Shown one piece after another: positions 4,924 through 61,767 of a DNA stretch of 64,000 nt (positions are counted from its first letter, which is position 1; each line of letters begins with the position of its first letter). Position numbers and translations under genes: made by a program. Below the pieces are notes generated by a model. It was not told the DNA's origin and did no database searches. It saw only the letters and a program-made list of their open reading frames with translations. The DNA comes from Clostridia bacterium. Lineage in GTDB: Bacteria; Bacillota; Clostridia; TANB77; UBA1234. Location of the stretch: contig JAFXCN010000020.1 of NCBI GenBank assembly GCA_017521465.1, forward strand, positions 5,797-69,796, in the 5' to 3' direction.

Positions 4924-5170
4924 ACGTCCGTCCAGTGAACACTTTGTGTCGGACAGAAAAATTCAGTCAGCGCACACTTTGTGTCGGACAGAAAAATTCA
5001 GTCAGTGAACATTTGTGTCGGACAGAAAAATTCAGCCAGCGCACACTTTGCGTCGGACAGAAAAATTCAGCCAGCGCACACTTTGCGTCGGACAGAAAAA
5101 TTCAGCCAGCGCACACTTTGCGTCGGACAGAAAAATTCAGTCAGTGAACATTTGTGTCGGACAGAAACTG
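4924..5170. repeat. tandem array of about 7 copies of a 34-35 bp unit (core GTCGGACAGAAAAATTCAG..CACACTTTG)
   Basis: Measured period is 35 bp (e.g. GCACAC at 5041, 5076, 5111). Two unit variants are present (CAGCGCACACTTTG and CAGTGAACATTTG). There are no unique spacers. Confidence 0.9.
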
Positions 5171-37071: not shown

Positions 37072-37419
37072 TTATTTCCAAACATTATATACCGTTTTAC
37101 CATCTTTGTTTTTTATTAAGTTGTAAACACCATCAAGTGTGTTTACATTAATAGAATTTTCATCATTAAAAATTTCAATTGTATGATTTTGATTTAATCC
37201 AAATGGATTTTGACCATCTGGGAAATATGATTTTGTTTCAACAATAATTTTATCATCATAAATATAATAAGTTTTGTCAGGACCATCTACATGTGACATA
37301 TTGTTTGTTAATATTAAATTATAATCTTCTGGTATGGTATAAGTTAATTTCCAAATTATAAAACTTAATATTATAAGTAGTACTATAACAGATATTGTTA
37401 TTATTATTTTCTTTTTCAT
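37072..37419 (-). CDS. hypothetical membrane-anchored protein
   Basis: N-terminal TM followed by a 90-aa beta-rich domain. Confidence 0.4.
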   Translation of the reverse strand: MKKKIIITISVIVLLIILSFIIWKLTYTIPEDYNLILTNNMSHVDGPDKTYYIYDDKIIVETKSYFPDGQNPFGLNQNHTIEIFNDENSINVNTLDGVYNLIKNKDGKTVYNVWK

Positions 37420-37453
37420 ATATTATGTAACCTTTCTGAAATTAAAATATTAT

Positions 37454-37792
37454 TTATAAATCCGTATTTTTATTGTTATTTTTTTTACTTTTAATATATA
37501 TTATTATTTTTGCACAAATAGTTATAAGTAGCACGATTACAGAAAGTATTGCACTACCGAAGCTGAATAAAACTTCACCCAAATATGATAATCCAGGCAT
37601 AAAGCCATAGCCAGGCAAGTTCTCATAATATTGCCATAATGTTATAGAAATTATAATAGAAAAAGTTTCTAATAAAAATACTTTTACCCAGCTTTTCGTT
37701 TCTTTCTTTTTTATAGCTTTTACTAATAAAACTATTTGTCCTATAAATATTACTAAATATAATATTAATACAAGTAAAGTTTCAATAGACAT
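37454..37792 (-). CDS. hypothetical 3-TM membrane protein
   Basis: Hydrophobic segments; no motif recognised. Confidence 0.35.
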   Translation of the reverse strand: MSIETLLVLILYLVIFIGQIVLLVKAIKKKETKSWVKVFLLETFSIIISITLWQYYENLPGYGFMPGLSYLGEVLFSFGSAILSVIVLLITICAKIIIYIKSKKNNNKNTDL

Positions 37793-37894
37793 TTTCTCTC
37801 CTCCGATAATTTTGAATTCATTACTCTATAAATAGTATACAATAAAATTATTTTCTCAACAATAAAAAAGACCGCAAAATGCGGTCGATTTATA

Positions 37895-38578
37895 TTAATC
37901 ACTACTTGACTTGAGTCTAAGTACATGCAAGAAAATATTAAGAAAGTCCAGATAAATTTCGAGTGCATAAAAGATTGCACATACATTTTCATTTTCGTTG
38001 AGCTTATAAGAGTTAGAATGATTCTTAATCTTATAAATATCGTATGCAGTAACGGCAACAAAAATTAGGATTGCAACTGCAGATACGACAAAGGAATAAA
38101 GACTATTATTTACGAAAATATCAACTATCAATGCAATAAGCAAGCCAATCAGAAGAATGGTCAAAATGCTACCCCAGGAGGAAAGATCCTTTTTGGTAAC
38201 AAAACCGTAAATTGCTGCAACAGCAAAGACTCCAGCTGCGATAAAGAATGCAGAATAAATATCAGGCAGTTCGTAAGCGCGGAAAATTATCGAAAGAACT
38301 ATACCTTCAAGTGCTGTATAGGTTATAAAGTAAAAATATGCAACGGGAGATGTAATACGACTAATAGTAAAACAAATAATGAATGTATATACAACAAGTC
38401 CAATGTTAAGTCCTATAAGCAAACCATTTGAAAGTACTGCGCCAGAATTAGCAATGCTATATGCAGTAATGCCAGAAATCAAAAGGCCCACAAACATCCA
38501 AAGAAATACTTTAGTAAACAATGAGCTAGATTCCGATTCATGTCGGACTTGATGGCTGTAAGGGCGGTAGTTTGTCAT
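37895..38578 (-). CDS. Bax-inhibitor-1/YccA-family membrane protein
   Basis: 7-TM protein. GC-rich hairpin terminator GACCGCATTTTGCGGTC at 37871-37895. Confidence 0.75.
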   Translation of the reverse strand: MTNYRPYSHQVRHESESSSLFTKVFLWMFVGLLISGITAYSIANSGAVLSNGLLIGLNIGLVVYTFIICFTISRITSPVAYFYFITYTALEGIVLSIIFRAYELPDIYSAFFIAAGVFAVAAIYGFVTKKDLSSWGSILTILLIGLLIALIVDIFVNNSLYSFVVSAVAILIFVAVTAYDIYKIKNHSNSYKLNENENVCAIFYALEIYLDFLNIFLHVLRLKSSSD

Positions 38579-38744
38579 CTTTGCTCCTCCTTTTTTGTTT
38601 CGTGTTCAACTTTAATTATGTCAAGTGAAATCTAAGGGCCATTCAATAGAATCATCCTTCTTTCTATTTAAATTTCGATTGAATTATATCAAATATCATG
38701 TTTTATGTCAAATTATAGAACTTATCTCCGAGCAAAAATGTCCG

Positions 38745-38860
38745 CTGGCAGGATTTTTTCGTCGGACACAAAACACATGATTTTGGACAATTTATGTCCG
38801 ACGTAAAGTATTCGCTGGGCGGACGTTTGTGTCCGACGAAAAGTGCTTGCCTCGTTTTGT
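38745..38860. repeat. GTCGGACA-family repeat copies in mixed orientation forming a 19-bp inverted repeat
   Basis: TTTTTCGTCGGACACAAAA (38766-38784) and TTTGTGTCCGACGAAAAGT (38836-38854) are inverted. Internal copy ATGTCCGACGTAAAGTATTCGCTGGGCGG. Confidence 0.8.
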
Positions 38861-38893
38861 GCAAAATGTTATCATTATTGTATGGAGGTTTCT

Positions 38894-39913
38894 ATGATTA
38901 GTTATGATGATTTGCCAGAGATTTTAGTTAATTATATGAATTATAATGCTAACTTGAATAGGTCTAAAAATTCAATTAATGAGTATCGTTATGATCTTAC
39001 TAGATTTCTGAAGTATATTAAAGTTTTGAAATTAAAAATAAAGACGAATTCTTTGGATGAGGTTGATATTAATGATGTTGACGAGAAGCTTTTGAATAAA
39101 GTTACTTTGAATGATTTGTATGCGTACATGACTTATTTGCGTGATGAATGTGGTAATTCTGCTACTTCTCGTGCTCGTAAGGTTGCTAGCATTAAAGGTT
39201 TTTTTAGATATTTGCATGTTAAGGCTAAACTTATTGATGATAATCCAGCTAAAGAATTAGAAAGTCCTAAAGTTGGTAAACGTTTGCCGAAGTATTTATC
39301 GCTTACAGAAAGTCAAGAATTGCTTGATAAAGCCAAGTCTGGTGATATTCATATTAGAAGTAAACGCGGAAAATCAGAACAAGATCTTAGTGAGAATCAA
39401 AAGAAGTTATCGGCTCGTGATTTTGCTATGATTACTTTATTTTTAAATTGTGGCATGCGTCTTTCAGAACTTGTTGGAATTAATTTAGAACATATTAAAT
39501 TTGATGAATGCAATTTGACTGTTATAGGAAAAGGAAATAAAGAAAGAACAGTCTACTTAAATAAAGCTTGTATAAATGCTCTTAATGAATATTTAAAAGT
39601 TAGACCTGATATTGATGGCAAAGATAAAAACGCTCTTTTCTTGAGTGAAAGAAAAAAACGTATAAGCAATAGAATGGTTCAAACTACTATTTCGGAATAT
39701 CTTAAAGCGGTTGGCTTAAGTGGTTATTCAACACATAAATTAAGACATACTGCGGCAACGCTTATGTATCAAAATGGTGTTGATGTAAGAGCGCTTCAAG
39801 AAATATTAGGACATGAAAGTATTGGTACAACTGAAATATATACACATGTAGATAATTATCAAATAAGACAAGCGATAGAAAACAATCCGCTTGCTGATTA
39901 TAAAGCAAAATAA
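38894..39913 (+). CDS. tyrosine recombinase, XerD/XerC-like
   Basis: C-terminal catalytic motifs HKLRHTAAT...LGHESIGTTEIYTH. ATG 38894 behind GGAGG. Hairpin terminator 39914-39942. Confidence 0.85.
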   Translation: MISYDDLPEILVNYMNYNANLNRSKNSINEYRYDLTRFLKYIKVLKLKIKTNSLDEVDINDVDEKLLNKVTLNDLYAYMTYLRDECGNSATSRARKVASIKGFFRYLHVKAKLIDDNPAKELESPKVGKRLPKYLSLTESQELLDKAKSGDIHIRSKRGKSEQDLSENQKKLSARDFAMITLFLNCGMRLSELVGINLEHIKFDECNLTVIGKGNKERTVYLNKACINALNEYLKVRPDIDGKDKNALFLSERKKRISNRMVQTTISEYLKAVGLSGYSTHKLRHTAATLMYQNGVDVRALQEILGHESIGTTEIYTHVDNYQIRQAIENNPLADYKAK

Positions 39914-39973
39914 AACTACGGAGAAAACTCCGTAGTTTTTTATACCAAAGAAAAGTTAAATGTATACAAATAT

Positions 39974-40246
39974 TTATACTGTAGGAATTAGTAGCTCCTG
40001 TCCTATGTAAATATCTGAATTGTTTAAATTATTTATTTTCTTTATTTCAAAAATATTTTCATTTATATTTCCATCAAGCGATTTTGCAATGCTCCAAAGT
40101 GTATCTCCATTAGAAACTATAACTTTTTCATATGTTGGTTCTTGATATGAAAAAACTCCTCCGAAAATACAATTAAATATAGAAAACATTAATATAAATA
40201 TTATTGACATTGATATTATAAATCTTGGCATACTCTTTATTCTCAT
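39974..40246 (-). CDS. LysM-domain membrane protein
   Basis: Signal-anchor plus LysM motif VSNGDTLWSIAKSL...IYIGQELLIP. Confidence 0.6.
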   Translation of the reverse strand: MRIKSMPRFIISMSIIFILMFSIFNCIFGGVFSYQEPTYEKVIVSNGDTLWSIAKSLDGNINENIFEIKKINNLNNSDIYIGQELLIPTV

Positions 40247-41971: not shown

Positions 41972-42772
41972 TTACTTTCCTCTACAGCCATTAACCCTGA
42001 GCTGGTAGTATATTGCATTCTTGGAAACTCCAAAGTATCGTGCCAGTTCTGTAACATTCCGCTGACCATTATGCCACATATCACAAAGAGCTTTAATCTC
42101 ATTTTCACGCAAACGCTCGCCAGTCTTGGGCCAGTCTTCTTTACTGGACATTTTGGATTGAGAAATCGGTTCGGCACTAGGCCGAGAAGTATTGCCATCT
42201 GTGGTAACAGTAGCCATTTGCTTCATGGATGCACGCTTCTGCTTCTTCTCTTCAGATGAACTGCACTCGGGAATTTTAGATGCCCAACGGCATACAGTTG
42301 CAATACTGACTTCAAATTCAGTAGCAATGTCAGCAATAGGCAGACAGTCGTTCCACATCTGTACGAACCGTTCCAGCTTGCCGGCAAGCTTGTCAGGAAT
42401 AAGCTGTTTAGCACCGATGCGCTTGAACGCTTTCCTCCTGCCATATCCATTCTTATAAGCATAGTTATATACGGAATTCTTCGTGACACCAAGTTGATCG
42501 GCCATCGTCTCGGCAGAGACACCCTCATTCCAGAGCTTCTCGAACAGCTCTTTGTCGATGCGCTTCCTGGTGGACTTTTTGGGCGCTTCAGAAGCCGCTT
42601 CTTCACGAATTTCAACTACCGTATTATCCTTTTTAGAAACATTCACATTAGGTTCAGCAGTGGTAGCATCATCACGATACACCCTGAAAACTACTTCGGT
42701 CGGGCTTGCTTGGATGAAATCAACCTTGATGCCTTCTTCGGCAACAAACCGGAAAGAGAACTCTTTCATTTT
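41972..42772 (-). CDS. GC-rich foreign gene: protein with three helix-turn-helix-like repeats
   Basis: Coding GC about 50% against a 28-30% background. Three copies of a pattern like LW(N/H)xG..V..(I/M)A..(F/L)GV(T/S)KN(S/A)(V/I)Y. Own terminator AGAGCAGAGCAATCTGCTCT followed by T7 at 41944-41968 (minus). Confidence 0.5.
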   Translation of the reverse strand, partial: KMKEFSFRFVAEEGIKVDFIQASPTEVVFRVYRDDATTAEPNVNVSKKDNTVVEIREEAASEAPKKSTRKRIDKELFEKLWNEGVSAETMADQLGVTKNSVYNYAYKNGYGRRKAFKRIGAKQLIPDKLAGKLERFVQMWNDCLPIADIATEFEVSIATVCRWASKIPECSSSEEKKQKRASMKQMATVTTDGNTSRPSAEPISQSKMSSKEDWPKTGERLRENEIKALCDMWHNGQRNVTELARYFGVSKNAIYYQLRVNGCRGK

Positions 42773-42941
42773 TTCCCCTCCTATGGGTTGGTTGGTTGTG
42801 TAGTAAAGTAACGCCATTAACAGATAAGAAAATTATCTCCTTTCCTTAGTTAATAGGTATAAACCAGAGGTATTATATCATAATAAAACAATTATGTAAA
42901 GCAAAAGAGACGAATTTTATGTTCGCCTCTTTTCTATATAT

Positions 42942-44659: not shown

Positions 44660-45520
44660 GTGATTAAAATAAAGCTAATATATACAGTAACTCAAGAAGA
44701 TTTAAATCTAAAATCAATATTAAGAAATAAGCTAAAGATTTCAAATAGATTACTTATAAAACTAAAATTAAATCATATGATATTTGTAAATAATGAGCCT
44801 GTGACTATAAATCATGAATTAAAAGAAAATGATATAGTTGAAGCAAGAATTGATTTTATAGAAGATGATGATATTGTTCCTGAAAAAATGGATTTAGATA
44901 TTTTATACGAAGATGAATATCTACTAGCTATAAATAAGCTACCTGGGATTGTTGTGCATCCATCTAGTTATCATCCTAAAGGAACACTTGCGAATGGAGT
45001 TAAATACTATTTAAATAATAAAAGAAAGATTAGACCAATAAACCGTTTAGATAGAGATACATCTGGTGTAGTATTATTTGCCAAAAATGAATACATACAA
45101 GAAAGATTCGTTTCATTAAAAGTTGATAAAGAATATATTGCTATACTAAATGGAACCCCTTCTCCTCTTGCTGACACTATAAATGCTAAAATAGCTCGAA
45201 AAGAGGGCTCGATAATGGAAAGATGCGTATCAGAAGCGGGACAAGAAGCAATTACACATTATACAGTAATAGAAGAACACGAAAATTATAGTATATTAAG
45301 TGTAAAAATAGAAACTGGCAGAACACATCAAATAAGAGTCCATATGGCCCATATAGGACATCCTATTGTTGGAGACACATTATATGGTCAAGAAAGTGAA
45401 TTAATCACAAGACAAGCTTTGCATTCGTATAAGACATCATTTGTGCATCCGATAACGGGAGAAGAAATTACAATATGTGCAGAGCTGCCAGAAGATATGG
45501 GTGTGCTGCTAAAAATTTAA
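44660..45520 (+). CDS. RluA-family 23S rRNA pseudouridine synthase (RluD-like)
   Basis: Catalytic motif INRLDRDTSGVVLFAK. S4-like N-terminus. GTG start. Confidence 0.85.
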   Translation: MIKIKLIYTVTQEDLNLKSILRNKLKISNRLLIKLKLNHMIFVNNEPVTINHELKENDIVEARIDFIEDDDIVPEKMDLDILYEDEYLLAINKLPGIVVHPSSYHPKGTLANGVKYYLNNKRKIRPINRLDRDTSGVVLFAKNEYIQERFVSLKVDKEYIAILNGTPSPLADTINAKIARKEGSIMERCVSEAGQEAITHYTVIEEHENYSILSVKIETGRTHQIRVHMAHIGHPIVGDTLYGQESELITRQALHSYKTSFVHPITGEEITICAELPEDMGVLLKI

Positions 45521-45545
45521 GTTTGATTATCATTCCAAGGATATG

Positions 45546-45640
45546 TAACGCAGTTCGTTTCCGCAGACGGCCGCTGCGCGGGCGGCAATTCGCCCTTTTC
45601 CGTCAGCGGAAATGTTTCCTTCGGAAACTTAGTTACTCCC
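45546..45640 (+). repeat. GC-rich multi-hairpin repeat element (TAACGCAGTTCG family), copy A
   Basis: TAACGCAGTTCGTTTCCGCAGACGG...CCGTCAGCGGAAATGTTTCCTTCGGAAAC. Shares architecture with the copies at 52860 and 61627. Confidence 0.8.
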
Positions 45641-45649
45641 GGAACTATG

Positions 45650-45700
45650 AGTAAGACATGTAAAAAACAGTCATCAGATAAATCTAATGACTGTTACTTT
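45650..45700 (-). terminator. rho-independent terminator of rnpB
   Basis: Minus strand: CAGTCATTAGATTTATCTGATGACTG followed by TTTTTT. Confidence 0.6.
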
Positions 45701-45707
45701 TTATAAA

Positions 45708-46046
45708 AAGAGCAAATCTATAAGCCGGGTTCTGTATTTGATAATCATTTATCTAGGATATACATTGCTGTATACCTCAAGCCGCCTTCTTCAAGAAGTA
45801 ATAGCGGGCAACTTAAACTTCTTCCATGGCGTTGCTCCGAGTGGGGTTTACATAGCCAATATGTCTCCATATTGCTGGTAGGCTCTTACCCTGCCTTTCC
45901 ATCCTTACCTTATTACTAAGGCGGTATATTTCTGTTGCACTATCCTTAGAGTTACCTCCACCAGCCGTTAGCTGGCACCCTGCCCTGTGGAGCCCGGACT
46001 TTCCTCATATGCTATAAATAGCATCCGCGATTATCTGACTTACTCC
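45708..46046 (-). ncRNA. rnpB: RNase P RNA
   Basis: Minus strand contains GAGGAAAGTCCGGGCTCCACAGGGCAGGGTGCCAGCTAACGGCTGG and the 3' P4 strand ACAGAACCCGGCTTA. Promoter TTGACT-17-TATAAT at about 46060-46090 (minus). Ends are approximate. Confidence 0.85.
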
Positions 46047-46153
46047 ATAGATATTATACTTTATGTTGCCTAAAAAGTCAATTTGTGTCCACACTTTTCA
46101 CTATTCATTATTCACTAACCAAAAAAGCCGGGGAAATTCCCCCGGCTTTTTGG

Positions 46154-46903
46154 TTATACATCTTTTATCCATTCCCAGAAGAAATTTTCCAGGAATATTC
46201 TAGGTGTTTGACCATGTGTCCAATCACCTACTACATATGCGTTATTGCTATCCTCTTCTCGCCAGGCACACTCTCTTGTGCCTAATTCAGTATAAAAGAG
46301 ATTAGCAAAATCATCTCGTGCGTTAAGGCCTATTTTCCTGTTCTCCTCACCTGTTCCAACAACAACCATAGCATTTACCATAGAAGAATCAAGTTCATTG
46401 CCGGTGTTACTTCTGCCAGAAATAAACACCCAACCATCAACAATGTCGTATCCATAATTATACGCCAAATTGAAAATCATAATGGCGCCATTTGAATGAC
46501 CTGCTAAAACGATTTTGGCTTTTGGATACTTGTTTTTTTGAAGTTCAATCAAATCAAGTACTTCATCTGTATTTGAGTGAAAGTCTTGATCATCATGAGC
46601 TTGCGGACATACTATTACGGCACCTGCTGGAAGCCAATTCTCAGGTATTGTAGTTGCATACTTAGTAGGACCATCAGTAGCTTTTTCGCCCATCAAATTC
46701 TTTAAATCTCTAAGTCGAGAACCTGTGTTACCGCTCCCGTGGAAATAGATTATCACAGTATCTACAGTAGTTGTTTGCTCACTTTCGAGCAAAGTGTACT
46801 TCCAATGACCGTTATCAATAGTAGTTACATCTGTTGCAAAAGCACATTGAGCATAGGTAAGCAAAAGACATGTTGCAAGGATAGTCAGAAAGATTTTCCG
46901 CAT
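46154..46903 (-). CDS. secreted alpha/beta hydrolase (esterase/lipase-like)
   Basis: Signal peptide; nucleophile elbow AGHSNGA. GC about 40%. GC-rich terminator AAAAAGCCGGGGAAATTCCCCCGGCTTTTT at 46120-46150. Confidence 0.55.
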   Translation of the reverse strand: MRKIFLTILATCLLLTYAQCAFATDVTTIDNGHWKYTLLESEQTTTVDTVIIYFHGSGNTGSRLRDLKNLMGEKATDGPTKYATTIPENWLPAGAVIVCPQAHDDQDFHSNTDEVLDLIELQKNKYPKAKIVLAGHSNGAIMIFNLAYNYGYDIVDGWVFISGRSNTGNELDSSMVNAMVVVGTGEENRKIGLNARDDFANLFYTELGTRECAWREEDSNNAYVVGDWTHGQTPRIFLENFFWEWIKDV

Positions 46904-47048
46904 AAGATGTTTTCCTCCTCAATCTTTAAGTCTACATAATTGTATCACGTAATGTCGAGAAATACAATATATTTTTGTATGTATCAATACTTCCAAATGA
47001 ACTGCGTTACAATAATGAAAAAACCAGAGATTTCTCCCTGGTTTGGTA

Positions 47049-51291: not shown

Positions 51292-51387
51292 AAAATCACC
51301 CTCCTAAATATTATACAGTTATTATAATATAACAATAAAGGAAATGCAACGAATAGTGAAAAGTGAAGAGTGAAGAGTAAATGAAAA

Positions 51388-52769: not shown

Positions 52770-52859
52770 TTTTTTCACCTCGATACCTATTTTACATAAA
52801 AAAGTGCAGAATGTCAATCAAATTTTAGAGTATGTCTGTAACATATTACCGTACGTATC

Positions 52860-52945
52860 AAAGCTTCCGAAGGAAGCTTTTTTCCAGGGCGAAAAAACGG
52901 TTTAGCCCGCGCAGCGGCGCCCTGGGAAAACGAACTGCGTTATAT
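52860..52945 (-). repeat. GC-rich multi-hairpin repeat element, copy C (inverted relative to copy B)
   Basis: The reverse complement matches 61630-61712 with a few substitutions. Contains AAGCTTCCGAAGGAAGCTT (UUCG tetraloop hairpin) followed by T6. Confidence 0.85.
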
Positions 52946-53016
52946 CAATTTGCTATGTTGCTGACATTTCCGGTGTATAAAAAAGTGCCCGCCATGACCT
53001 GGCGGGCGAAGAAAAA

Positions 53017-53313
53017 TTACGCAGTGGCGGCTTCGACTTCCGCACGCAGCGCATCGTTGTCAAAATGAATTTCATTGAGAGAAACAGCCCTCTTCAGGAC
53101 AGCTTCCAGCGAATTCTGCAACTTAATAAACGGTACGAGCAACAGAGACTCGTTCATCTGATACTTTGCAATCTTTGCGGGATCGTCAGAATCCCACCAG
53201 GATACCTTGCCGTACTTGTCCATCACTGCGAGATAGGATTCTTCCTTTTCAGCAGGGACCTGCAGCACATTCCTGACATAATTCCGACGGATAACCAGCA
53301 TACGATCGACCAT
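53017..53313 (-). CDS. GC-rich hypothetical protein
   Basis: 98-aa ORF in a roughly 50% GC segment. GC-rich terminator GCCCGCCAGGTCATGGCGGGC at 52975-53010. Confidence 0.4.
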   Translation of the reverse strand: MVDRMLVIRRNYVRNVLQVPAEKEESYLAVMDKYGKVSWWDSDDPAKIAKYQMNESLLLVPFIKLQNSLEAVLKRAVSLNEIHFDNDALRAEVEAATA

Positions 53314-53966: not shown

Positions 53967-56336
53967 TTAAACTCTTATCCTTACATTGCATTCAGCACTT
54001 ACTTTTTCGATAATCTTATTAAATAATGATAATACTTCTTCATCACTTAATGTTTTTTCTTTATCGTTGAATGTTAATTTGTATGCTATAGATTTTTCAT
54101 CTTCTTTTACGTTTTCACCAGTGTATACATCAAATACTTCTATGTTAGTTAATAGTTTTCCGCCAGCTTTTTTGATAGCTGCTTCTACTACTTCTGATCT
54201 CATTTCTTTATTCATTACGAATGCTACGTCTTTTACAACACTTGGGAATTTAGAAATTTCTTTATATTTCATTTTCTTTGAGTTATTGGTATCTGCTAAT
54301 AATTTTTCAAGATTTACTTCTAAAACATAAATATTATCTTTAGAAACGTTAGGATGAATTTTTCCTATTATTCCTACTTTTTCACCAGCAAGCATTATGC
54401 TAGCAGATTGGCCTGGATGAAGTTCTACAGGAAGATCTTCAATAGCCAATTTGTATTCACCAGCAAATCCTAAATGATCTAACATTTCTTCCATTACACC
54501 TTTTATAGTGTAGAAATTTACTTGTTCTTTATCAATACCAACAACATAGTTTCCTGTCATTAATGCAGCCAAATTTAATTGTTCTCCATATTTTCCATCT
54601 TTCTTATAGAAGCTCTTTCCTATTTCAAATATAGAAATATCTTTTTGATTACGAGCCTTATTATATTCGTAAATCATTTTTAGTGATGGAATTAAACTAT
54701 ATCTTAATGCATTTCTTTCTTCTGTCATTGGATCTAATATTTTTACTGTATCAAATTCATCAGTTGTATATTTATGAACCTCTCTTTCTGGAATTAAAGC
54801 ATAGCTTAATGTTTCATTAAGACCAAGTTCAACCATTTTGTTTCTAACACTTCTTTTGGCCTTATCATAGCTTCCTGTTTTTAAAGGTAAAACAATTGGT
54901 TTAGCAACTATTTTATCCATACCATATATACGGCCAACTTCTTCGATTAAGTCTTCTTTTATAGATATATCTAATCTTCTAGAAGGCACAAGAACAGTCA
55001 AAATGTTTTCATTAACTCTAGTTTCAAATCCAAGTCTTTTGAATATTCCAATAACTTCTTCTCTAGGGATTTCAATTCCTAAGACTTGATTTATTTTTTC
55101 AAATGTTACATCAATTTCTTTGTCTTCTTTATTAGTTTTGTCATGAACAATTAGTCCACTAACTATTTCTGCGCCTGCAAGTTTTTCAAGCAAGTTACAA
55201 CTTCTCTCGATTGCCATATATGTTCTCTTTGGATCTAATCCTTTTTCGAATCTGTTACTTGCTTCGCTTCTTAATACTTTTTTAGAAGTTAAACGAATTT
55301 TAACTGCATCGAATATAGCAGATTCAATTAAGATATTTTTTGTATCTTCAGTAACTTCAGTTGAGAAACCACCCATTACACCAGCAAGACCAATAGCTTC
55401 TGTTTTATTAGCAATTACGATATCACTTTCGCTTAATATTCTTTCTTGTTCATCAAGAGTCATTAACTTTTCATCATTATTTGCATGTCTTACAACAATT
55501 GTATCTCCTAATTTATCTGCATCATAGAAATGAAGTGGTTGACCAACTTCAAGCATTACATAGTTACTTATATCTACAACATTATTAATTGGTCTAATAC
55601 CAGAAGCTATAAGTCTATTTCTTAACCATTCTGGACTCTCTTTTATCACAACATTGTTTACTCTTTTTGCTAAGAATAGTGGGCAATCTTCTGTTTTGAT
55701 ATCTAGATTAAATTTACCATCAATATTTTCTGAAGATTCTGTATATGATAAATCAATAGGTTTTACTTCTTTATCATATATTGCTCCAATTTCATGAGCC
55801 ATACCCAAAATACTAAGCAAGTCTCCTCTATTTGCAGTAAGTTCGAAATCAATTACTTCGTCATCTAACTGTAAATATTTAACTGGATCTTCACCTGGAA
55901 CTGCGTCTTCGCCAAGTTCGATAATTCCTTCTACATCTTTTGGTCTTAAGTATTTATGTTCTATACCTAATTCTTCTAAAGAGCACATCATACCATATGA
56001 TTCTACTCCTCTTATTTTACTGGCTTTTATTTTGAAATCTCCTGGTAGAACTGCACCTACTAAAGCAACAACTACTTTTATACCAACCCTTGCATTAGGC
56101 GCACCACAAACGATTTGAAGTGTTTCTTTTCCAACATTTACTTTACATACATGTAAATGATCAGAGTCAGGATGCATCTCGCATTCTAATATTTCACCAA
56201 TTACTAAGTTAGTAGCATTTATTAATTTTTCAGCACTATCGTATTCATTACCAACGTTAGTCATATCGTCAGCAAGTGTTTTATAATCAACTGGAATATC
56301 TATATAGTCTTTTACAAAATTAGTACTTAATTTCAT
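53967..56336 (-). CDS. pheT: phenylalanine--tRNA ligase beta subunit
   Basis: Full-length PheT architecture (tRNA-binding, B3/4, B5 and FDX-ACB domains). Start is about 56336-56345, overlapping the pheS stop. Confidence 0.95.
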   Translation of the reverse strand: MKLSTNFVKDYIDIPVDYKTLADDMTNVGNEYDSAEKLINATNLVIGEILECEMHPDSDHLHVCKVNVGKETLQIVCGAPNARVGIKVVVALVGAVLPGDFKIKASKIRGVESYGMMCSLEELGIEHKYLRPKDVEGIIELGEDAVPGEDPVKYLQLDDEVIDFELTANRGDLLSILGMAHEIGAIYDKEVKPIDLSYTESSENIDGKFNLDIKTEDCPLFLAKRVNNVVIKESPEWLRNRLIASGIRPINNVVDISNYVMLEVGQPLHFYDADKLGDTIVVRHANNDEKLMTLDEQERILSESDIVIANKTEAIGLAGVMGGFSTEVTEDTKNILIESAIFDAVKIRLTSKKVLRSEASNRFEKGLDPKRTYMAIERSCNLLEKLAGAEIVSGLIVHDKTNKEDKEIDVTFEKINQVLGIEIPREEVIGIFKRLGFETRVNENILTVLVPSRRLDISIKEDLIEEVGRIYGMDKIVAKPIVLPLKTGSYDKAKRSVRNKMVELGLNETLSYALIPEREVHKYTTDEFDTVKILDPMTEERNALRYSLIPSLKMIYEYNKARNQKDISIFEIGKSFYKKDGKYGEQLNLAALMTGNYVVGIDKEQVNFYTIKGVMEEMLDHLGFAGEYKLAIEDLPVELHPGQSASIMLAGEKVGIIGKIHPNVSKDNIYVLEVNLEKLLADTNNSKKMKYKEISKFPSVVKDVAFVMNKEMRSEVVEAAIKKAGGKLLTNIEVFDVYTGENVKEDEKSIAYKLTFNDKEKTLSDEEVLSLFNKIIEKVSAECNVRIRV

Positions 56337-57375
56337 TTTCCTCATCCTTTCTGTCAAATTGTTCTAAGAAACGAATATCGTTTGTATATAAAAGTCTTAT
56401 ATCTGTGATTGCGTATTTAAACATTGCAAGTCTATCAAGACCTGTACCGAATGCAAATCCAGTATATTTGTCTGGGTCATATCCGCTCATTTTAAGTACA
56501 TTTGGATGTACCATACCTGCACCTAAAAGTTCAATCCAACCAGTTTGTTTACAAAGATTACATCCTTTACCACCACATTTGAAGCAAGTAACGTCAACTT
56601 CACAAGAAGGTTCTGTGAATGGGAAATAACTTGGTCTGAATCTTATTTGTGTATTTTCACCTAATAATTTTTTAGCTAAAATTTCAAGTGTTCTCTTTAA
56701 ATCAGCAAGTGATACATTTTCATCAATAACTAATCCTTCAACTTGTGCGAATTGATGAGAGTGTGTAGCATCATCATCTCTACGATAAGTTTTACCAGGA
56801 CAGATAATTCTGATTGGTGATTTTTCTTTGTTGGCTTGCATTACTCTTGATTGAGAAGCAGATGTTTGTGTTCTAAGCAAATATTCATCATCAATATAGA
56901 ATGTGTCTTGTGCATCTCTTGCAGGATGACCAACGTAGTAATTTAAAAGTCTGAAGCAATGTTCATCATCTTCAAGTTCTGGACCGTCGTAAACGTCATA
57001 TCCCATTGATACGAATAAGTCCTCTACTTCTTCTATAATTCTATTTAATGGATGTTTAGATCCTCTTTTAATTTTTTTACTTGGAAGTGAAATATCAATA
57101 GTATCTTTCTTTAATTTTTCATTTACAATTTCTTCTTGAATTTTTGTTTGTGTAGCTGTAAACAAATCATTAAATAGTACCCTAACTGAATTTACTATCA
57201 TTCCGTATTCTTTCTTTTCTTCAGGAGCTACATCTTTAATGCCGTTATTAAGTTCAGTAATTAGTCCTTTCTTACCCATATACATGGCTTTTAGATCATT
57301 AAGTTCTTGCATAGTTTTAATCTCTGCAAACTTTTGAGTTATCTCTTGTTTTAATTGTTCGATTTTCTCTTGCAT
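56320..57375 (-). CDS. pheS: phenylalanine--tRNA ligase alpha subunit
   Basis: Class II motifs (FRPSYFPFTEP, GAGMVHPNVL). Start MQEKIEQ at 57375 behind AAAGGAA. Confidence 0.95.
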   Translation of the reverse strand: MQEKIEQLKQEITQKFAEIKTMQELNDLKAMYMGKKGLITELNNGIKDVAPEEKKEYGMIVNSVRVLFNDLFTATQTKIQEEIVNEKLKKDTIDISLPSKKIKRGSKHPLNRIIEEVEDLFVSMGYDVYDGPELEDDEHCFRLLNYYVGHPARDAQDTFYIDDEYLLRTQTSASQSRVMQANKEKSPIRIICPGKTYRRDDDATHSHQFAQVEGLVIDENVSLADLKRTLEILAKKLLGENTQIRFRPSYFPFTEPSCEVDVTCFKCGGKGCNLCKQTGWIELLGAGMVHPNVLKMSGYDPDKYTGFAFGTGLDRLAMFKYAITDIRLLYTNDIRFLEQFDRKDEENEIKY

Positions 57376-57754
57376 CTGAAAAATCATTCCTTTCTTTATA
57401 TAAATTATTATCTTGTTACTAATTCTTGTTCTCAAACCAAAATTGTTTATTCTCACTAAAACTCATCTTGCTACAACTTCTAACAAAAATATTTAGCTCG
57501 CTACGTGATACGCAAGCGTTTAAAACTGCGCTCGCTACATTTTTGAAGAATTTGTATACTACGCTTCGTAAATCGTTCGAACAAAAAATTTTGTTTTGAG
57601 AATATGTTCCTAATACACCAATAAATTGATTATCATTCCAAATTACTGTAACGCAGTTCGCTAAATCATAGTGAATAACGAATAACTAATAGTGAATAGT
57701 AATGGCTATTCGGATAATTATTAACTATTCACTCTTCACCATTCACTATTCACT

Positions 57755-58010
57755 ATAAAAAATGTCCCTGACATTTTTTATACAATGCCAGGGACGAAAA
57801 TTCTAATTATTTCCGCGGTACCACCCGTGTTCTAATCACAAAGATTAGCTCTCAAAATAGATTAACGCTCTAATCACGTGATAACTCCAATAGCGAAATT
57901 CATTTATATACAGAGCTTAGAGAAACTTTCAGTCGGTGATTTCTCCTTCCTACAAGATACATATAAACTACTAAAAATACCTTCATCGTCACCAATGGAT
58001 ATATATTACT
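57755..58010 (-). ncRNA. T-box riboswitch leader (Phe specifier UUC) for pheST
   Basis: Minus strand: T-box motif AACACGGGTGGTACCGCGG (plus-strand 57813-57831). Terminator GTCCCTG..CAGGGAC followed by T-run (57760-57797). Candidate specifier GAAAGUUUCUC. Confidence 0.7.
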
Positions 58011-58054
58011 CCTTTTTTTGAGAAAAGTCAAGGTTATGTCCGTATAAAAATATA

Positions 58055-58175
58055 CTCTGTGTGAACTTTTGTGTCCGACGTAAAGTGTACGCTGGGTGAA
58101 TTTTTCTGTCGGACATAAATCTTTCGCTAGGAATCATTTTTCAACGGACACAAAAAAGTCGGCATATGGCCGACT
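58055..58175. repeat. GTCGGACA-family repeat copies (fourth locus)
   Basis: TTTTGTGTCCGACGTAAAGTGTACGCTGGGTGAATTTTTCTGTCGGACATAAA. Near-identical to the locus-3 internal copy and to the reverse complement of the array-1 unit. Confidence 0.8.
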
Positions 58176-58182
58176 TAAGTAA

Positions 58183-58413
58183 TTAGTCTGTGTATTCATC
58201 AGTACGTTTTATTACATGAATAACATTTTCATTTTTCATAGGACAATCTGTGCTAACAACGCAGTCTAAGCAATCATCAGGTGTATGGTAGCATTTCTTC
58301 TCTTCTTGTTTGTTTTTATTAGGCTTAATACGTTCAATAAGCATTTGAATGCCAGGATTGTAATAAAGCATAATTAGTAAAATGATAACAAGAAGGATAA
58401 TAGCAACGTCCAC
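58183..58413 (-). CDS. hypothetical small membrane protein
   Basis: 76 aa with N-terminal TM and 4 Cys. Confidence 0.3.
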   Translation of the reverse strand: MDVAIILLVIILLIMLYYNPGIQMLIERIKPNKNKQEEKKCYHTPDDCLDCVVSTDCPMKNENVIHVIKRTDEYTD

Positions 58414-58611
58414 AAAAACACCTCCAGTTTATAGTGTTTTTTATGAGTGAAAAAGTATGATTATTATATCACAAAAGGCTTGAAAATCAAGAAAAACTTA
58501 TCGACAAAAAAGCACGAAATTTACTTTTCACTATTCACTATTAGCTATTCACTTTTGCTTGCAAAAAAAAGGGAGGCCCCGGATTTTACTCCGGGGACCT
58601 CCGCCCTATTT

Positions 58612-59115
58612 TTAAGGTGCCATAGGGGGCACCACCGCGACCAGCCCCTTGTACTGGTCCTGGTATTCCGCCAGTTTGGTAGCCGTGTTGCGCTGCCAGC
58701 GGGCGCGTTCCTTGGTTTTCTTTGCCGTGTTTTCGACGTCAGCGGCAAAGGCCTCTACCTCGTTGCAAAGGAGCTCGAACGCTTCTGCGACGCCAACCTT
58801 GCCCAGGGCGGCAGTAGCAACCGCAGCCTCAGCTTCTTCGCTGTCCAGGAACTTGACGAAATCTTCAATTTCCTTTTCAAGCTTGAGCCACGGCTTTTTC
58901 TTCAGTTGCGCCTCTTTGAGCTTTTCGCCGATGCCCTTGAAAAGGTCAGTGCAGTTGGAGATAATCGCCGGTACAGAGCCTACCAGGGCAAAGGCGGCAA
59001 CAATGAATCCCCAGAAATTCTGGGTCTGGGTCTGCACGTTGGTGAAAACCTTCAGGGCCATGATGGCCAGAACGAAAGTGATAATGGGGTTCAGAACAGA
59101 AAGGGTCTTCTTCAT
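58612..59115 (-). CDS. GC-rich hypothetical membrane protein
   Basis: 167-aa ORF in a segment of about 58% GC. Terminator GGGAGGTCCCCGGAGTAAAATCCGGGGCCTCCC followed by T8 at 58560-58600 (minus). Confidence 0.4.
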   Translation of the reverse strand: MKKTLSVLNPIITFVLAIMALKVFTNVQTQTQNFWGFIVAAFALVGSVPAIISNCTDLFKGIGEKLKEAQLKKKPWLKLEKEIEDFVKFLDSEEAEAAVATAALGKVGVAEAFELLCNEVEAFAADVENTAKKTKERARWQRNTATKLAEYQDQYKGLVAVVPPMAP

Positions 59116-59402: not shown

Positions 59403-59831
59403 TTACTTTTCAGTTTCATCTTCAGATTCAGAAGATTCTTCAGTATCCTCTTCTACTGCATCAGGGTCGCACTCACTAACACACTCATCGCAGCAAGGAC
59501 AATCACATACATCATCTTCTACTTCATCTTCGCACTCACATTCACATTCACAGCAATCGCAAGCTTCGCAATTACACTCACAGTCCTTATCAAGGCCAAG
59601 TTTCTTGTCGATCCACTTTTCAGCCTTGTCAAGAGCAGCTTCACCAAAAATAAGTTCAAACAGTGCAACAATGATGCCAAGTGCAATAACCGCACCGATA
59701 ATCCAGAAAAGACCAATCTCAATGATGTAAAACACTGCGGACAGGATATTCCGTCCAAAGAAGAAATGGACTACGCCGATGAGCAGGCACAGAAGGGTAA
59801 ACGCAAGGGCCTTTTGACGAGACTTAGACAT
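59403..59831 (-). CDS. small membrane protein with Cys-rich acidic C-terminal tail
   Basis: Two TM helices, then DKDCECNCEACDCCECECECEDEVEDDVCDCPCCDECVSECD. GC-rich terminator at 59366-59395. Confidence 0.45.
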   Translation of the reverse strand: MSKSRQKALAFTLLCLLIGVVHFFFGRNILSAVFYIIEIGLFWIIGAVIALGIIVALFELIFGEAALDKAEKWIDKKLGLDKDCECNCEACDCCECECECEDEVEDDVCDCPCCDECVSECDPDAVEEDTEESSESEDETEK

Positions 59832-61590: not shown

Positions 61591-61626
61591 AGTTTCTCCT
61601 TGTAAATTATAATTTGATTTTCATAG

Positions 61627-61715
61627 CAAATTACTCTAACGCAGTTCGTTTTCCCAGGGCGCCGCTGCGCGGGCGAAACCGTTTTTTCGCCCTGGAAAAA
61701 AGCTTCCTGCGGAAG
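61627..61715 (+). repeat. GC-rich multi-hairpin repeat element, copy B; on the minus strand it provides the rpmF terminator
   Basis: TAACGCAGTTCGTTTTCCCAGGGCG..CGCCCTGGAAAAAAGCTTCCTGCGGAAGCT. Minus-strand reading gives AGCTTCC-GCA-GGAAGCT followed by T6 directly after the rpmF stop. Confidence 0.85.
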
Positions 61716-61767
61716 CTGAAATACGCACATATATATGGTGTTCATATATATAAAAAAAAGCAACTAA

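What the first reader, a model, noticed from the sequence alone, without database searches (positions are those of the whole stretch)
57376..58010. pheST T-box leader separated from the start codon by about 380 bp of inserted repeat sequence
On the minus strand the T-box motif and terminator end near 57757, but pheS starts at 57375. T-box terminators normally sit within tens of nt of the start codon. The gap contains a TAACGCAGTTCG signature and a palindromic element with ATAGTGAATAG terminal inverted repeats (57660-57756). Further direct repeats (GTAGCGAGC) occur at 57480-57560. This looks like MITE-type insertion into an essential-gene leader. It would lengthen the 5'-UTR or supply a new promoter.
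Basis: partly seen in the sequence, partly recalled or inferred. Interest (0 to 1): 0.5.

Follow-up and report, generated by a model that had tools for sequence, protein, structure and literature searches.

The report
Nested repeat insertions in pheS T-box leader
The regulatory leader of the essential phenylalanyl-tRNA synthetase genes has picked up about 330 bases of small repeat elements between its terminator and the start codon, which is a clear but fairly ordinary case of selfish intergenic repeats settling in a tolerated gap.

Summary
A Phe-specific T-box leader (57787-57995, minus strand) ends in a terminator at about 57757. pheS starts at 57375, so the non-coding gap is 381 nt. In 72 relatives the equivalent gap is about 350 nt shorter at the median. 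Every relative with a gap of 300 nt or more carries an ORF there.

Comparative data support insertion.
- Relatives with 91-95% PheS identity have only 36-50 nt after the terminator.
- A sister species (99% PheS, about 91% DNA identity) carries a full GC-rich copy of the TAACGCAGTTCG repeat at exactly this site.
- A third lineage carries that repeat in the opposite orientation.

The window's spacer has three inserted parts plus the original leader:
- a 95-nt inverted array of AGTGAAT heptads, which replaces the hairpin part of the repeat;
- the retained roughly 46-nt TAACGCAGTTCG module;
- a 182-nt MITE-like palindrome with 24-nt terminal inverted repeats and an 8/9 flanking duplication;
- 39 nt of original leader.

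The T-box looks constrained: about 97% identity to the sister species against 89.5% at pheS third codon positions. No new terminator-like site lies in the spacer. T-box read-through through a long structured 5'-UTR is therefore the likeliest mechanism. A hybrid promoter (TTGAGA-17-GATAAT) is possible but untested. A BOX element inside a pneumococcal T-box leader is a published precedent.

The parts
56320..57375 (-). pheS coding sequence (351 aa); pheT follows at 53967-56357
   Evidence: ORF list. Homologues align from residue 1. Pfam tRNA-synt_2d and Phe_tRNA-synt_N.
57376..57414 (-). Original proximal leader with the ribosome-binding site (AAGATAATAATTTATATAAAGAAAGGAATGATTTTTCAG)
   Evidence: Shared at 95% over 41 nt with sister lineages L212-L215 and L211 (A3). 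L216 has the equivalent TTAGAAAGGATGATTTTTGG.
57407..57435 (-). Candidate hybrid sigma-70-type promoter TTGAGA-17-GATAAT. The -35 lies in the right inverted repeat of the 182-nt element and the -10 in original leader.
   Evidence: 10 of 12 consensus matches. Not statistically above shuffles. Untested.
57415..57423 (-). Right copy of the putative 9-bp target-site duplication (ATTAGTAAC)
   Evidence: Matches 57606-57614 (ATTAGGAAC) at 8 of 9 positions; p of about 0.03-0.04.
57424..57605 (-). 182-nt MITE-like long imperfect palindrome. Inverted repeats at 57579-57602 and 57429-57452. Two GTAGCGAGC copies at its centre.
   Evidence: 24-nt arms 88% complementary. Fold dG -44.1, z -2.6. Absent from sister species L212 and L211 at the same place. 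GTAGCGAGC occurs twice against 0.08 expected. No other copy in the sequence held for the two closest lineages or in the roughly 1 Mb of more distant pheS loci.
57606..57614 (-). Left copy of the putative target-site duplication (ATTAGGAAC)
57615..57660 (+). Retained end module of the TAACGCAGTTCG repeat family (..TTGATTATCATTCCAAATTACTG TAACGCAGTTCG on the + strand)
   Evidence: nhmmer E=2.5e-5 to the family profile. 35-40 nt at 86-88% identity to copies at 45518 and 61609. Orthologous to the module of the full copy in L212, 89.6% over 48 nt.
57662..57756 (-). AT-rich palindrome: about 5 AGTGAAT heptads followed by about 5 ATTCACT heptads. It occupies the place of the GC-rich hairpins and tail of the repeat in L212.
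   Evidence: Replacement seen in alignment A3 (97 nt here, 101 nt in L212). Similar heptad runs follow other terminators.
57757..57795 (-). T-box terminator hairpin and U-tract
   Evidence: 12-pair stem, loop of 8, then ATTTTTTATA. Aligned with the terminators of relatives.
57787..57995 (-). T-box leader with Phe specifier UUC
   Evidence: RF00230 at 66.4 bits, E=5.7e-14. Relatives score 86-89 bits. About 97% identical to L212 and 83% to L001.
58003..58031 (-). Likely promoter of the T-box leader (TTGACT-17-TAATAT)
   Evidence: TTGAC is conserved in all relatives' alignments.
45518..45657 (+). Full copy A of the TAACGCAGTTCG family (type I hairpins), next to the RNase P RNA terminator
   Evidence: nhmmer E=5.5e-38; alignment A4.
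52835..52970 (-). Full copy B (type II hairpins), between the terminator of a 98-aa ORF and the der promoter
   Evidence: nhmmer E=2e-42. L212 has a type I copy in the opposite orientation in the same gap. L210 and L216 have none.
61602..61731 (+). Full copy C (type II), a 130-nt insert between the rpmF terminator and the RBS of the DUF512 radical-SAM gene
   Evidence: Exact filled versus empty comparison with L212. Terminator-like hairpin on the minus strand.
46955..47009 (-). Internally deleted copy of the family (TAACGCAGTTCA + 3' half of hairpin 2 + tail)

Best explanation
The 381-nt gap is the product of successive insertions of small non-coding repeat elements into the short gap (originally about 36-50 nt) between the pheST T-box terminator and the ribosome-binding site.

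Inferred order of events:
1. In the ancestor of the window species and its sister species, a roughly 130-165-nt hairpin-bearing element (the TAACGCAGTTCG family) landed directly after the terminator's U-tract.
2. In the window lineage, the element's GC-rich hairpin and tail portion was replaced by an inverted array of AGTGAAT heptads. That portion carries a terminator-like hairpin on the mRNA strand. Only the roughly 46-nt end module remains.
3. A 182-nt MITE-like palindrome inserted a few bases further downstream, with a 9-bp duplication.

Inferred function: the inserts are passengers. pheST is still transcribed from the promoter upstream of the T-box and still depends on tRNA-Phe-mediated antitermination. 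Read-through RNA polymerase simply crosses an extra roughly 330 nt of strongly folded but terminator-free RNA.

A secondary and weaker possibility is basal T-box-independent transcription from a hybrid promoter, formed by the palindrome's right inverted repeat (-35) and the original leader (-10).

Shown here: the anatomy, the lineage distribution, the family membership of the module, the absence of sense-strand terminator-like sites, and T-box conservation.
Inferred: the order of events, read-through, and any promoter activity.
For: Gap length:
- The distance from the T-box motif to the ATG is 438 nt here. The median in 72 relatives is 89 nt (IQR 63-178). All gaps of 300 nt or more in relatives contain ORFs.
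- The window's other T-box (34494-34686) lies about 50 nt from its gene.

Lineage distribution:
- Empty state in L216, L210 and L217 (95% PheS) and in L001 (91%).
- Full family copy at the same junction (TTTTTTAT|...) in L212-L215 (99% PheS, about 91% nt identity).
- Opposite-orientation copy in L211.

Mobility of the family:
- Copy C is present in the window and cleanly absent in L212.
- The gap upstream of der holds different subfamilies in opposite orientations in the two species and is empty in L210 and L216.
- Hairpins are maintained by compensatory changes: 4 of 9 pairs in hairpin 1 and 1 of 6 in hairpin 2, with 94.6% of cells paired against 29-49% when partners are slid.

182-nt element: terminal inverted repeats, an 8/9 duplication, and absence in the sister species.

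Stability: independent assemblies of the species carry the spacer, in full or over the part they cover.

T-box constraint:
- About 97% identity to L212 against 89.5% at pheS third codon positions.
- 83% identity to L001 against 62% at third positions and 51% upstream of the promoter.

Terminators and folding:
- The only sense-strand terminator-like sites in 57200-58300 are the T-box terminator and the terminator of the upstream gene.
- The L212 insert does contain a terminator-like hairpin on the sense strand.
- The spacer fold has z -5.6.

Precedent: a BOX element co-transcribed within a still-functional tandem T-box leader of the pneumococcal trp operon (PMC3049150).
Against: - No transcript data exist, so read-through and T-box function are inferred from conservation only.
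- The window's T-box scores 66 bits against 86-89 in five more distant relatives. Its conserved purine after the specifier is G rather than A. Some functional erosion cannot be excluded.
- The 182-nt element is single-copy in all sequence available. Its duplication is imperfect and only modestly significant, so a local inverted duplication is not excluded.
- How the heptad palindrome replaced the hairpin portion is unknown.
- The L211 contig ends 80 nt upstream of pheS, so its state is only partly seen.
- The ends of the family are ragged between copies and no mobilising enzyme was identified.
Confidence: 0.75

Rival explanations
1. The insert rewired expression. The hybrid promoter (TTGAGA in the palindrome's right inverted repeat, 17 bp, GATAAT in the original leader, about 32 nt upstream of the ATG) now drives most pheST transcription independently of tRNA-Phe charging, and the T-box is being bypassed.
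For: - 10 of 12 consensus matches with ideal 17-bp spacing.
- The -35 exists only because of the insertion; L212 has no such site.
- The window's T-box scores about 20 bits below more distant relatives.
- IS- and MITE-borne outward or hybrid promoters are well established, for example in Correia elements (review PMC10969869).
Against: - Promoter-like matches in this AT-rich region are no more frequent than in shuffles (3 found against 4.8 expected).
- The lower-scoring T-box sequence is shared almost unchanged with L212, which lacks the 182-nt element (A3). The score drop therefore does not track the putative promoter.
- The T-box is more conserved than synonymous sites.
Confidence: 0.15
2. 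The spacer, or the TAACGCAGTTCG module within it, is a functional cis-acting RNA or DNA element recruited for pheST control. It could be a processing or stability determinant, a protein-binding site or a second regulatory switch, rather than passive repeat DNA.
For: - Strongly non-random folding of the spacer (z -5.6).
- The module is retained in two species while its neighbouring part was exchanged.
- The family has an invariant motif pair, CGCAG...CTGCG, that could form a pseudoknot with the covarying hairpin 1.
- Three related lineages all carry a family copy in this same gap.
Against: - The content of the gap differs completely in its remaining parts between sister species, and the family copy is inverted in L211. 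This is not expected for a conserved regulator.
- Lineages with 91-95% PheS identity manage with 36-50 nt.
- Other family copies lie in unrelated contexts and in both orientations, including facing the 3' ends of convergent genes.
- No Rfam family matches.
- The CGCAG/CTGCG pairing never varies, so it is untested.
Confidence: 0.07
3. The long spacer is an assembly artefact or chimeric join at repeats.
For: - The region is rich in repeats and palindromes.
- One contig (L082) ends inside the AT-rich palindrome.
Against: - The 385-nt spacer query is found in full at 100% identity in L081 and L083, and over 384 nt at 99.7% in L082.
- L206-L208, from further samples, are collinear with the window across the spacer at 99.96-100% identity.
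- These contigs come from separate assemblies.
Confidence: 0.02

Closest known systems
BOX element inside the tandem T-box leader of the Streptococcus pneumoniae trp operon (Croucher et al. 2011, PMC3049150)
   Same: A small, tightly folding, non-coding interspersed repeat sits inside a T-box-controlled 5'-UTR in a Firmicute. It produces a compound leader that is co-transcribed while the riboswitch still works. BOX is modular with a variable middle part, like the TAACGCAGTTCG family (constant end module, exchangeable hairpin part). Repeats cluster and insert next to or into each other.
   Different: No sequence relationship. Here the repeats lie downstream of a single T-box terminator rather than between two T-boxes, and the gene is an essential aaRS. 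BOX has terminal inverted repeats (boxA/boxC); the TAACGCAGTTCG family does not.
[quoted passage not shown]
   Same: A dispersed repeat whose main feature is a GC-rich hairpin followed by a T-run on one strand (hairpin 2 of copies B and C, and of the L212 pheS copy). It is found close to gene ends or terminators.
   Different: The family here has two different hairpins plus about 40 nt of conserved unstructured sequence. It occurs in both orientations. In copy C it lies between a terminator and the next gene's RBS.
Bacterial MITEs that alter expression of neighbours (Correia/CREE, RUP, ERIC; review PMC10969869)
   Same: The 182-nt element has terminal inverted repeats, a probable target duplication, no ORF, folds into a long hairpin, is co-transcribed in a 5'-UTR, and may contribute a -35 box to a hybrid promoter.
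   Different: Only one copy seen. No parent IS identified. Promoter activity untested. The 9-bp duplication differs from the TA duplication of Correia.
IS200/IS605-derived palindrome-associated elements and REP/BIME
   Same: The TAACGCAGTTCG family lacks both terminal inverted repeats and target duplications, and it carries conserved hairpins.
   Different: Its two hairpins are unlike each other. There is no strand bias in the window (3 plus, 2 minus). No conserved 4-5-nt target or GTAG motif was seen at the junctions. No TnpA or RAYT gene is in the window.

Membership tests
T-box leader (Rfam RF00230) | Covariance-model score at or above the curated gathering score (93 bits) | tested here: not met
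   66.4 bits, E=5.7e-14. The pheS T-boxes of five relatives also fall just short at 86-89 bits, so the clade as a whole is a short-form variant lacking Stem II.
T-box leader (Rfam RF00230) | Stem I with a specifier codon matching the regulated gene's amino acid | tested here: met
   GAAUUUCG in the specifier loop gives UUC (Phe) upstream of pheST (alignment). The following purine is G rather than the usual A.
T-box leader (Rfam RF00230) | Conserved T-box sequence with a UGGN bulge, and mutually exclusive antiterminator and terminator | tested here: met
   GGGUGGUACCGCG at 57814-57826. Terminator of 12 pairs plus U-tract whose 5' arm overlaps the antiterminator 3' side.
T-box leader (Rfam RF00230) | tRNA-dependent antitermination demonstrated | not testable with these tools
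   Only sequence conservation above synonymous-site level is available.
MITE (applied to the 182-nt element 57424-57605) | Terminal inverted repeats | tested here: met
   24-nt arms, 88% complementary.
MITE (applied to the 182-nt element 57424-57605) | Target-site duplication flanking the element | tested here: inconclusive
   ATTAGGAAC / ATTAGTAAC match at 8 of 9 positions, 3-5 nt outside the inverted repeats; p of about 0.03-0.04.
MITE (applied to the 182-nt element 57424-57605) | Multiple dispersed copies, or a related autonomous IS | tested here: not met
   No second copy in the 64-kb window, 7.6 kb of extra same-species sequence, the sister-species loci, or about 1 Mb of relatives' pheS loci. 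The rest of the genome could not be searched.
MITE (applied to the 182-nt element 57424-57605) | Presence/absence polymorphism at an otherwise conserved site | tested here: met
   Absent in L212-L215 and L211, whose flanking module and proximal leader are conserved.
MITE (applied to the TAACGCAGTTCG family) | Terminal inverted repeats and target-site duplication | tested here: not met
   The filled versus empty site of copy C shows a clean 130-nt insert with neither feature. The ends differ between copies (A4).
Dispersed small repeat family (applied to the TAACGCAGTTCG element) | Several copies at unrelated loci, with insertion polymorphism between close relatives | tested here: met
   Three full and two partial copies in 64 kb. 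Two copies in 21 kb of L212. Copy C is absent in L212. None in lineages with 95% PheS identity or less.
Integron attC site (considered for the TAACGCAGTTCG element) | R''/R' core sites (RYYYAAC ... GTTRRRY) pairing across the element, in a cassette-array context | tested here: not met
   By inspection of A4..TAAC is present but no conserved GTTRRRY partner lies at the other end. Copies are scattered singly, in both orientations, between housekeeping genes.

The most novel reading that the evidence does not exclude
The TAACGCAGTTCG element may be an undescribed kind of small mobile or recombinogenic module rather than a MITE. Its features are a constant roughly 40-nt arm, an invariant CGCAG...CTGCG pair around a covarying GC-rich hairpin (a possible pseudoknot or protein-binding array), and no inverted repeats or duplications.

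It repeatedly enters the few bases after intrinsic terminators, in either orientation. Its hairpin cassette can be swapped at the TAACGCAGTTCG border, as seen between the window and L212. If so, it could be a site-specific system that remodels terminator-promoter junctions, including those of essential genes such as pheST, the gene downstream of rpmF, der and rnpB.
Probability: 0.1. Interest if true: 0.65.

Novelty: new member of a known kind. Interest (0 to 1): 0.33.

Why it matters
This is a clean natural series of one T-box leader: empty, one element, and a nested composite, with an inverted copy in a third lineage. It shows that the stretch between a riboswitch terminator and the ribosome-binding site tolerates, and repeatedly attracts, small repeat elements even in front of an essential operon.

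There are two practical consequences. Covariance-model scans and 'distance to start codon' filters would miss or mis-assign this T-box. Two apparently undescribed repeat families in uncultured gut Clostridia are now defined well enough to be censused. It does not change the understanding of T-box regulation.

Tried and rejected
- Metagenome pattern scan for CAAN7TAACGCAGTTCG. The 120 loci returned were all chance matches with no extended homology.
- Viral-contig scan for TAACGCAGTTCG-N(8-20)-CCGCTGCGCGGGC: no hits.
- Plasmid BLAST of copy B: no match.
- Rfam at permissive E-value on the spacer and on copy B: only noise, such as miRNA and snoRNA models on AT-rich hairpins.
- Full-text search for the 12-mer: no hits.
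- Small ORF or leader peptide in the spacer: only spurious ORFs of 27-57 aa. The in-frame GTG extension starts inside the inserted element.
- In-place inversion (an inverton) as the explanation for opposite orientations in the der and pheS gaps. Rejected because the copies belong to different subfamilies and have different ends. Independent insertions are more likely.
- attC, IS200/IS605-type and REP readings of the family: rejected on the features listed in the membership table.
- An apparent indel polymorphism in L207 downstream of pheT is a scaffold gap of Ns.
- AT-rich 'palindrome' similarity in the L071 leader is only low-complexity sequence within the T-box variable region.
- Pfam on the five small ORFs around pheST: nothing.

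Full report
**1. Check of the observation**

On the minus strand, pheS starts at the ATG at 57375, followed by pheT. Homologues from 80 species align from residue 1.

A T-box leader lies at 57787-57995.
- It scores 66.4 bits (E=5.7e-14), below Rfam's gathering score of 93. Only a permissive scan finds it.
- It has a UUC specifier, the GGGUGGUACCGCG box, and a 12-pair terminator (57795-57764) followed by ATTTTTTATA.

- TAACGCAGTTCG occurs 5 times in the window (one copy with 1 mismatch) against 0.11 expected.
- The AT-rich palindrome 57662-57756 has dG -31.2 and z -5.7.
- GTAGCGAGC occurs twice against 0.08 expected.

Independent assemblies that encode an identical PheS carry the spacer, in full or over the part they cover, at 99.7-100% identity. 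It is not an assembly artefact.

**2. Is the gap unusual?**

In 72 relatives with a recognisable T-box, the distance from the T-box motif to the pheS ATG has a median of 89 nt (IQR 63-178). Here it is 438 nt.
- The eight relatives with 300 nt or more all have an ORF in the gap.
- The non-coding gaps reach at most about 276 nt. Several of these also contain hairpin repeats.
- The window's second T-box (34494-34686) sits about 50 nt from its gene.

**3. Comparative series**

A protein search found lineages between the window and its nearest GTDB representative. Their contigs give four states of the same site.

| Lineage | PheS identity to window | State of the gap after the terminator |
|---|---|---|
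| L216, L210, L217 | 95% | Empty: 36-50 nt to the ATG |
| L001 | 91% | Empty: about 50 nt to the ATG |
| L212-L215 (about 91% DNA identity) | 99% | Full roughly 137-nt GC-rich TAACGCAGTTCG element immediately after TTTTTTAT, then about 25 nt and the same proximal leader |
| L211 | 97% | Hairpin 2 and tail of the family in the opposite orientation, abutting the proximal leader (contig ends 80 nt upstream) |
| Window species | 100% | Nested composite, described below |

The empty state in L216 reads ...GGGGACTTTTTTTATTAAAAATATATTAGAAAGGATGATTTTTGGATG.

In the window species:
- the end module CGAACTGCGTTACAGTAATTTGGAATGATAATCAA is orthologous to that of L212 (89.6% over 48 nt);
- the 101 nt of hairpins and tail are replaced by a 97-nt inverted array of AGTGAAT heptads;
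- an extra 195 nt lies between the module and the proximal leader.

**4. Anatomy of the extra 195 nt**

It contains a 174-nt imperfect palindrome (57429-57602).
- It has 24-nt terminal inverted repeats at 88% complementarity. The fold has dG -44.1 and z -2.6.
- It lies within a 182-nt block (57424-57605) flanked by ATTAGGAAC and ATTAGTAAC, which match at 8 of 9 positions. The chance of such a match is about 0.03-0.04.
- Removing the block and one repeat leaves GGTGTATTAGGAACAAGATAAT. This aligns with L212's GGTGTATAGTGGAAT(GGAAT)AAGATAAA.
- This fits a MITE. However, no second copy exists in any sequence I could reach.

**5. The TAACGCAGTTCG family**

The window holds three full copies, one internally deleted copy and the pheS fragment:
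- full copies at 45518-45657 (+), 52835-52970 (-) and 61602-61731 (+);
- the internally deleted copy at 46955-47009 (-).

L212 holds two copies in 21 kb. There are none in the 95%-identity lineages or in about 1 Mb of more distant pheS loci.

Structure of the element:
- a conserved roughly 40-nt arm ending in TAACGCAGTTCG;
- hairpin 1, with a conserved apex (CCGCTGCGCGGGCG) and a stem that differs between two subfamilies but stays paired (4 of 9 pairs compensatory);
- hairpin 2, GYTTCC-TTC-GGAARC (1 compensatory pair);
- a ragged tail.

Overall, 94.6% of cells pair, against 29-49% in slid controls.

Evidence on mobility and insertion sites:
- Copy C, compared with L212's empty site, is a clean 130-nt insertion. 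It has no inverted repeats and no duplication. It sits between the rpmF terminator and the RBS of the next gene.
- The gap upstream of der holds a type II copy in one orientation in the window and a type I copy in the other orientation in L212. It is empty in L210 and L216.
- Most copies lie within about 20 nt of a terminator's T-run.
- On one strand, hairpin 2 plus its T-run scores as a terminator.

Nothing similar is in Rfam, the plasmid collection, IMG/VR or the searchable literature.

The heptad arrays that replaced the hairpins recur after four other terminators in the window.

**6. How it most likely works**

The T-box is under purifying selection.
- It is about 97% identical to L212, against 89.5% at pheS third codon positions.
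- It is 83% identical to L001, against 62% at third positions and 51% just upstream of the promoter.

The spacer contains no additional sense-strand terminator-like site. The ancestral-type insert in L212 does contain one. Loss of that hairpin in the window lineage may have been favoured, but this is inference.

The spacer is strongly folded (z -5.6).

The best-supported reading is that pheST remains under T-box control and is read through a long, structured, passenger-laden 5'-UTR.

A hybrid promoter is a plausible minor contributor but is not supported statistically.
- Its -35, TTGAGA, lies inside the palindrome's right inverted repeat. Its -10, GATAAT, lies in original leader, 17 bp away.
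- The slightly degraded T-box sequence (66 bits against 86-89 in relatives) is shared with L212, which lacks that promoter.

**7. Comparison with known systems and verdict**

The closest precedent is the BOX element embedded in the tandem T-box leader of the pneumococcal trp operon. It is co-transcribed and the riboswitches remain functional (PMC3049150). That paper also describes SPRITE, a terminator-like repeat, and the clustering of repeats into one another. MITE-borne promoters and structural effects are reviewed in PMC10969869.

The present case is therefore a new example, with new repeat families in an uncultured gut Clostridia lineage, of a known phenomenon. The comparative series is unusually clean, and the TAACGCAGTTCG family is odd enough to merit a genome-wide census: no inverted repeats or duplications, proximity to terminators, and an exchangeable hairpin cassette. 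For T-box biology, however, the finding is ordinary.

Noticed in passing
window 4932-5167, 33711-33904, 38722-38845, 58034-58165: Tandem arrays of a 35-bp unit containing the near-palindrome TGTCGGACA (6.8, 5.5 and fewer copies). Each lies just upstream of a promoter-like site; the last lies directly upstream of the pheS T-box promoter. The unit number differs between the window and sister species L212. They look like arrays of protein-binding sites, but nothing identifies the binder.
   Followed up: partly
window 33686-33705, 46092-46117, 51355-51382, 58519-58553: Short runs of the same AGTGAAT/AGTGAAA heptad that builds the pheS palindrome. Each lies just after an intrinsic terminator, and two lie next to the 35-bp arrays.
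   Followed up: partly
window 61602-61731: Copy C of the TAACGCAGTTCG element is inserted 11 nt upstream of the ATG of a conserved DUF512 radical-SAM gene, between the rpmF terminator and that gene's RBS. A terminator-like hairpin faces the gene. How the gene is transcribed in this species is unclear.
   Followed up: partly
window 58612-59115(-), 53017-53313(-), about 42001-42800: Islands of 46-51% GC in a roughly 30% GC genome. They encode small proteins without Pfam matches. The 167-aa and 98-aa ORFs flank the pheST operon and have orthologues in sister lineages.
   Followed up: partly
window 59403-59831(-): A 142-aa ORF with an N-terminal membrane segment and a C-terminal run of CxC/CxxC and acidic residues (CECNCEACDCCECECECEDE...). 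No Pfam hit.
   Followed up: no
window about 36000-40000: Cumulative GC skew peaks here and the predominant coding strand switches from + to -. This suggests a replication terminus or origin within the window.
   Followed up: no
L011, L012, L021, L039, L046, L067, L080, L078 (about 370-750 nt between T-box motif and pheS): In several related species an extra protein-coding gene lies between the pheS T-box terminator and pheS, so it would be under Phe-tRNA control. By inspection of the printed spacers, the genes look like hydrolase-like proteins and small membrane proteins. Other relatives (L002, L026, L055, L056, L059) carry unrelated hairpin repeats there.
   Followed up: no
window 45518-47009: The RNase P RNA gene (45705-46046) and a 249-aa ORF are bracketed by a full copy and an internally deleted copy of the TAACGCAGTTCG element in inverted orientation.
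   Followed up: no
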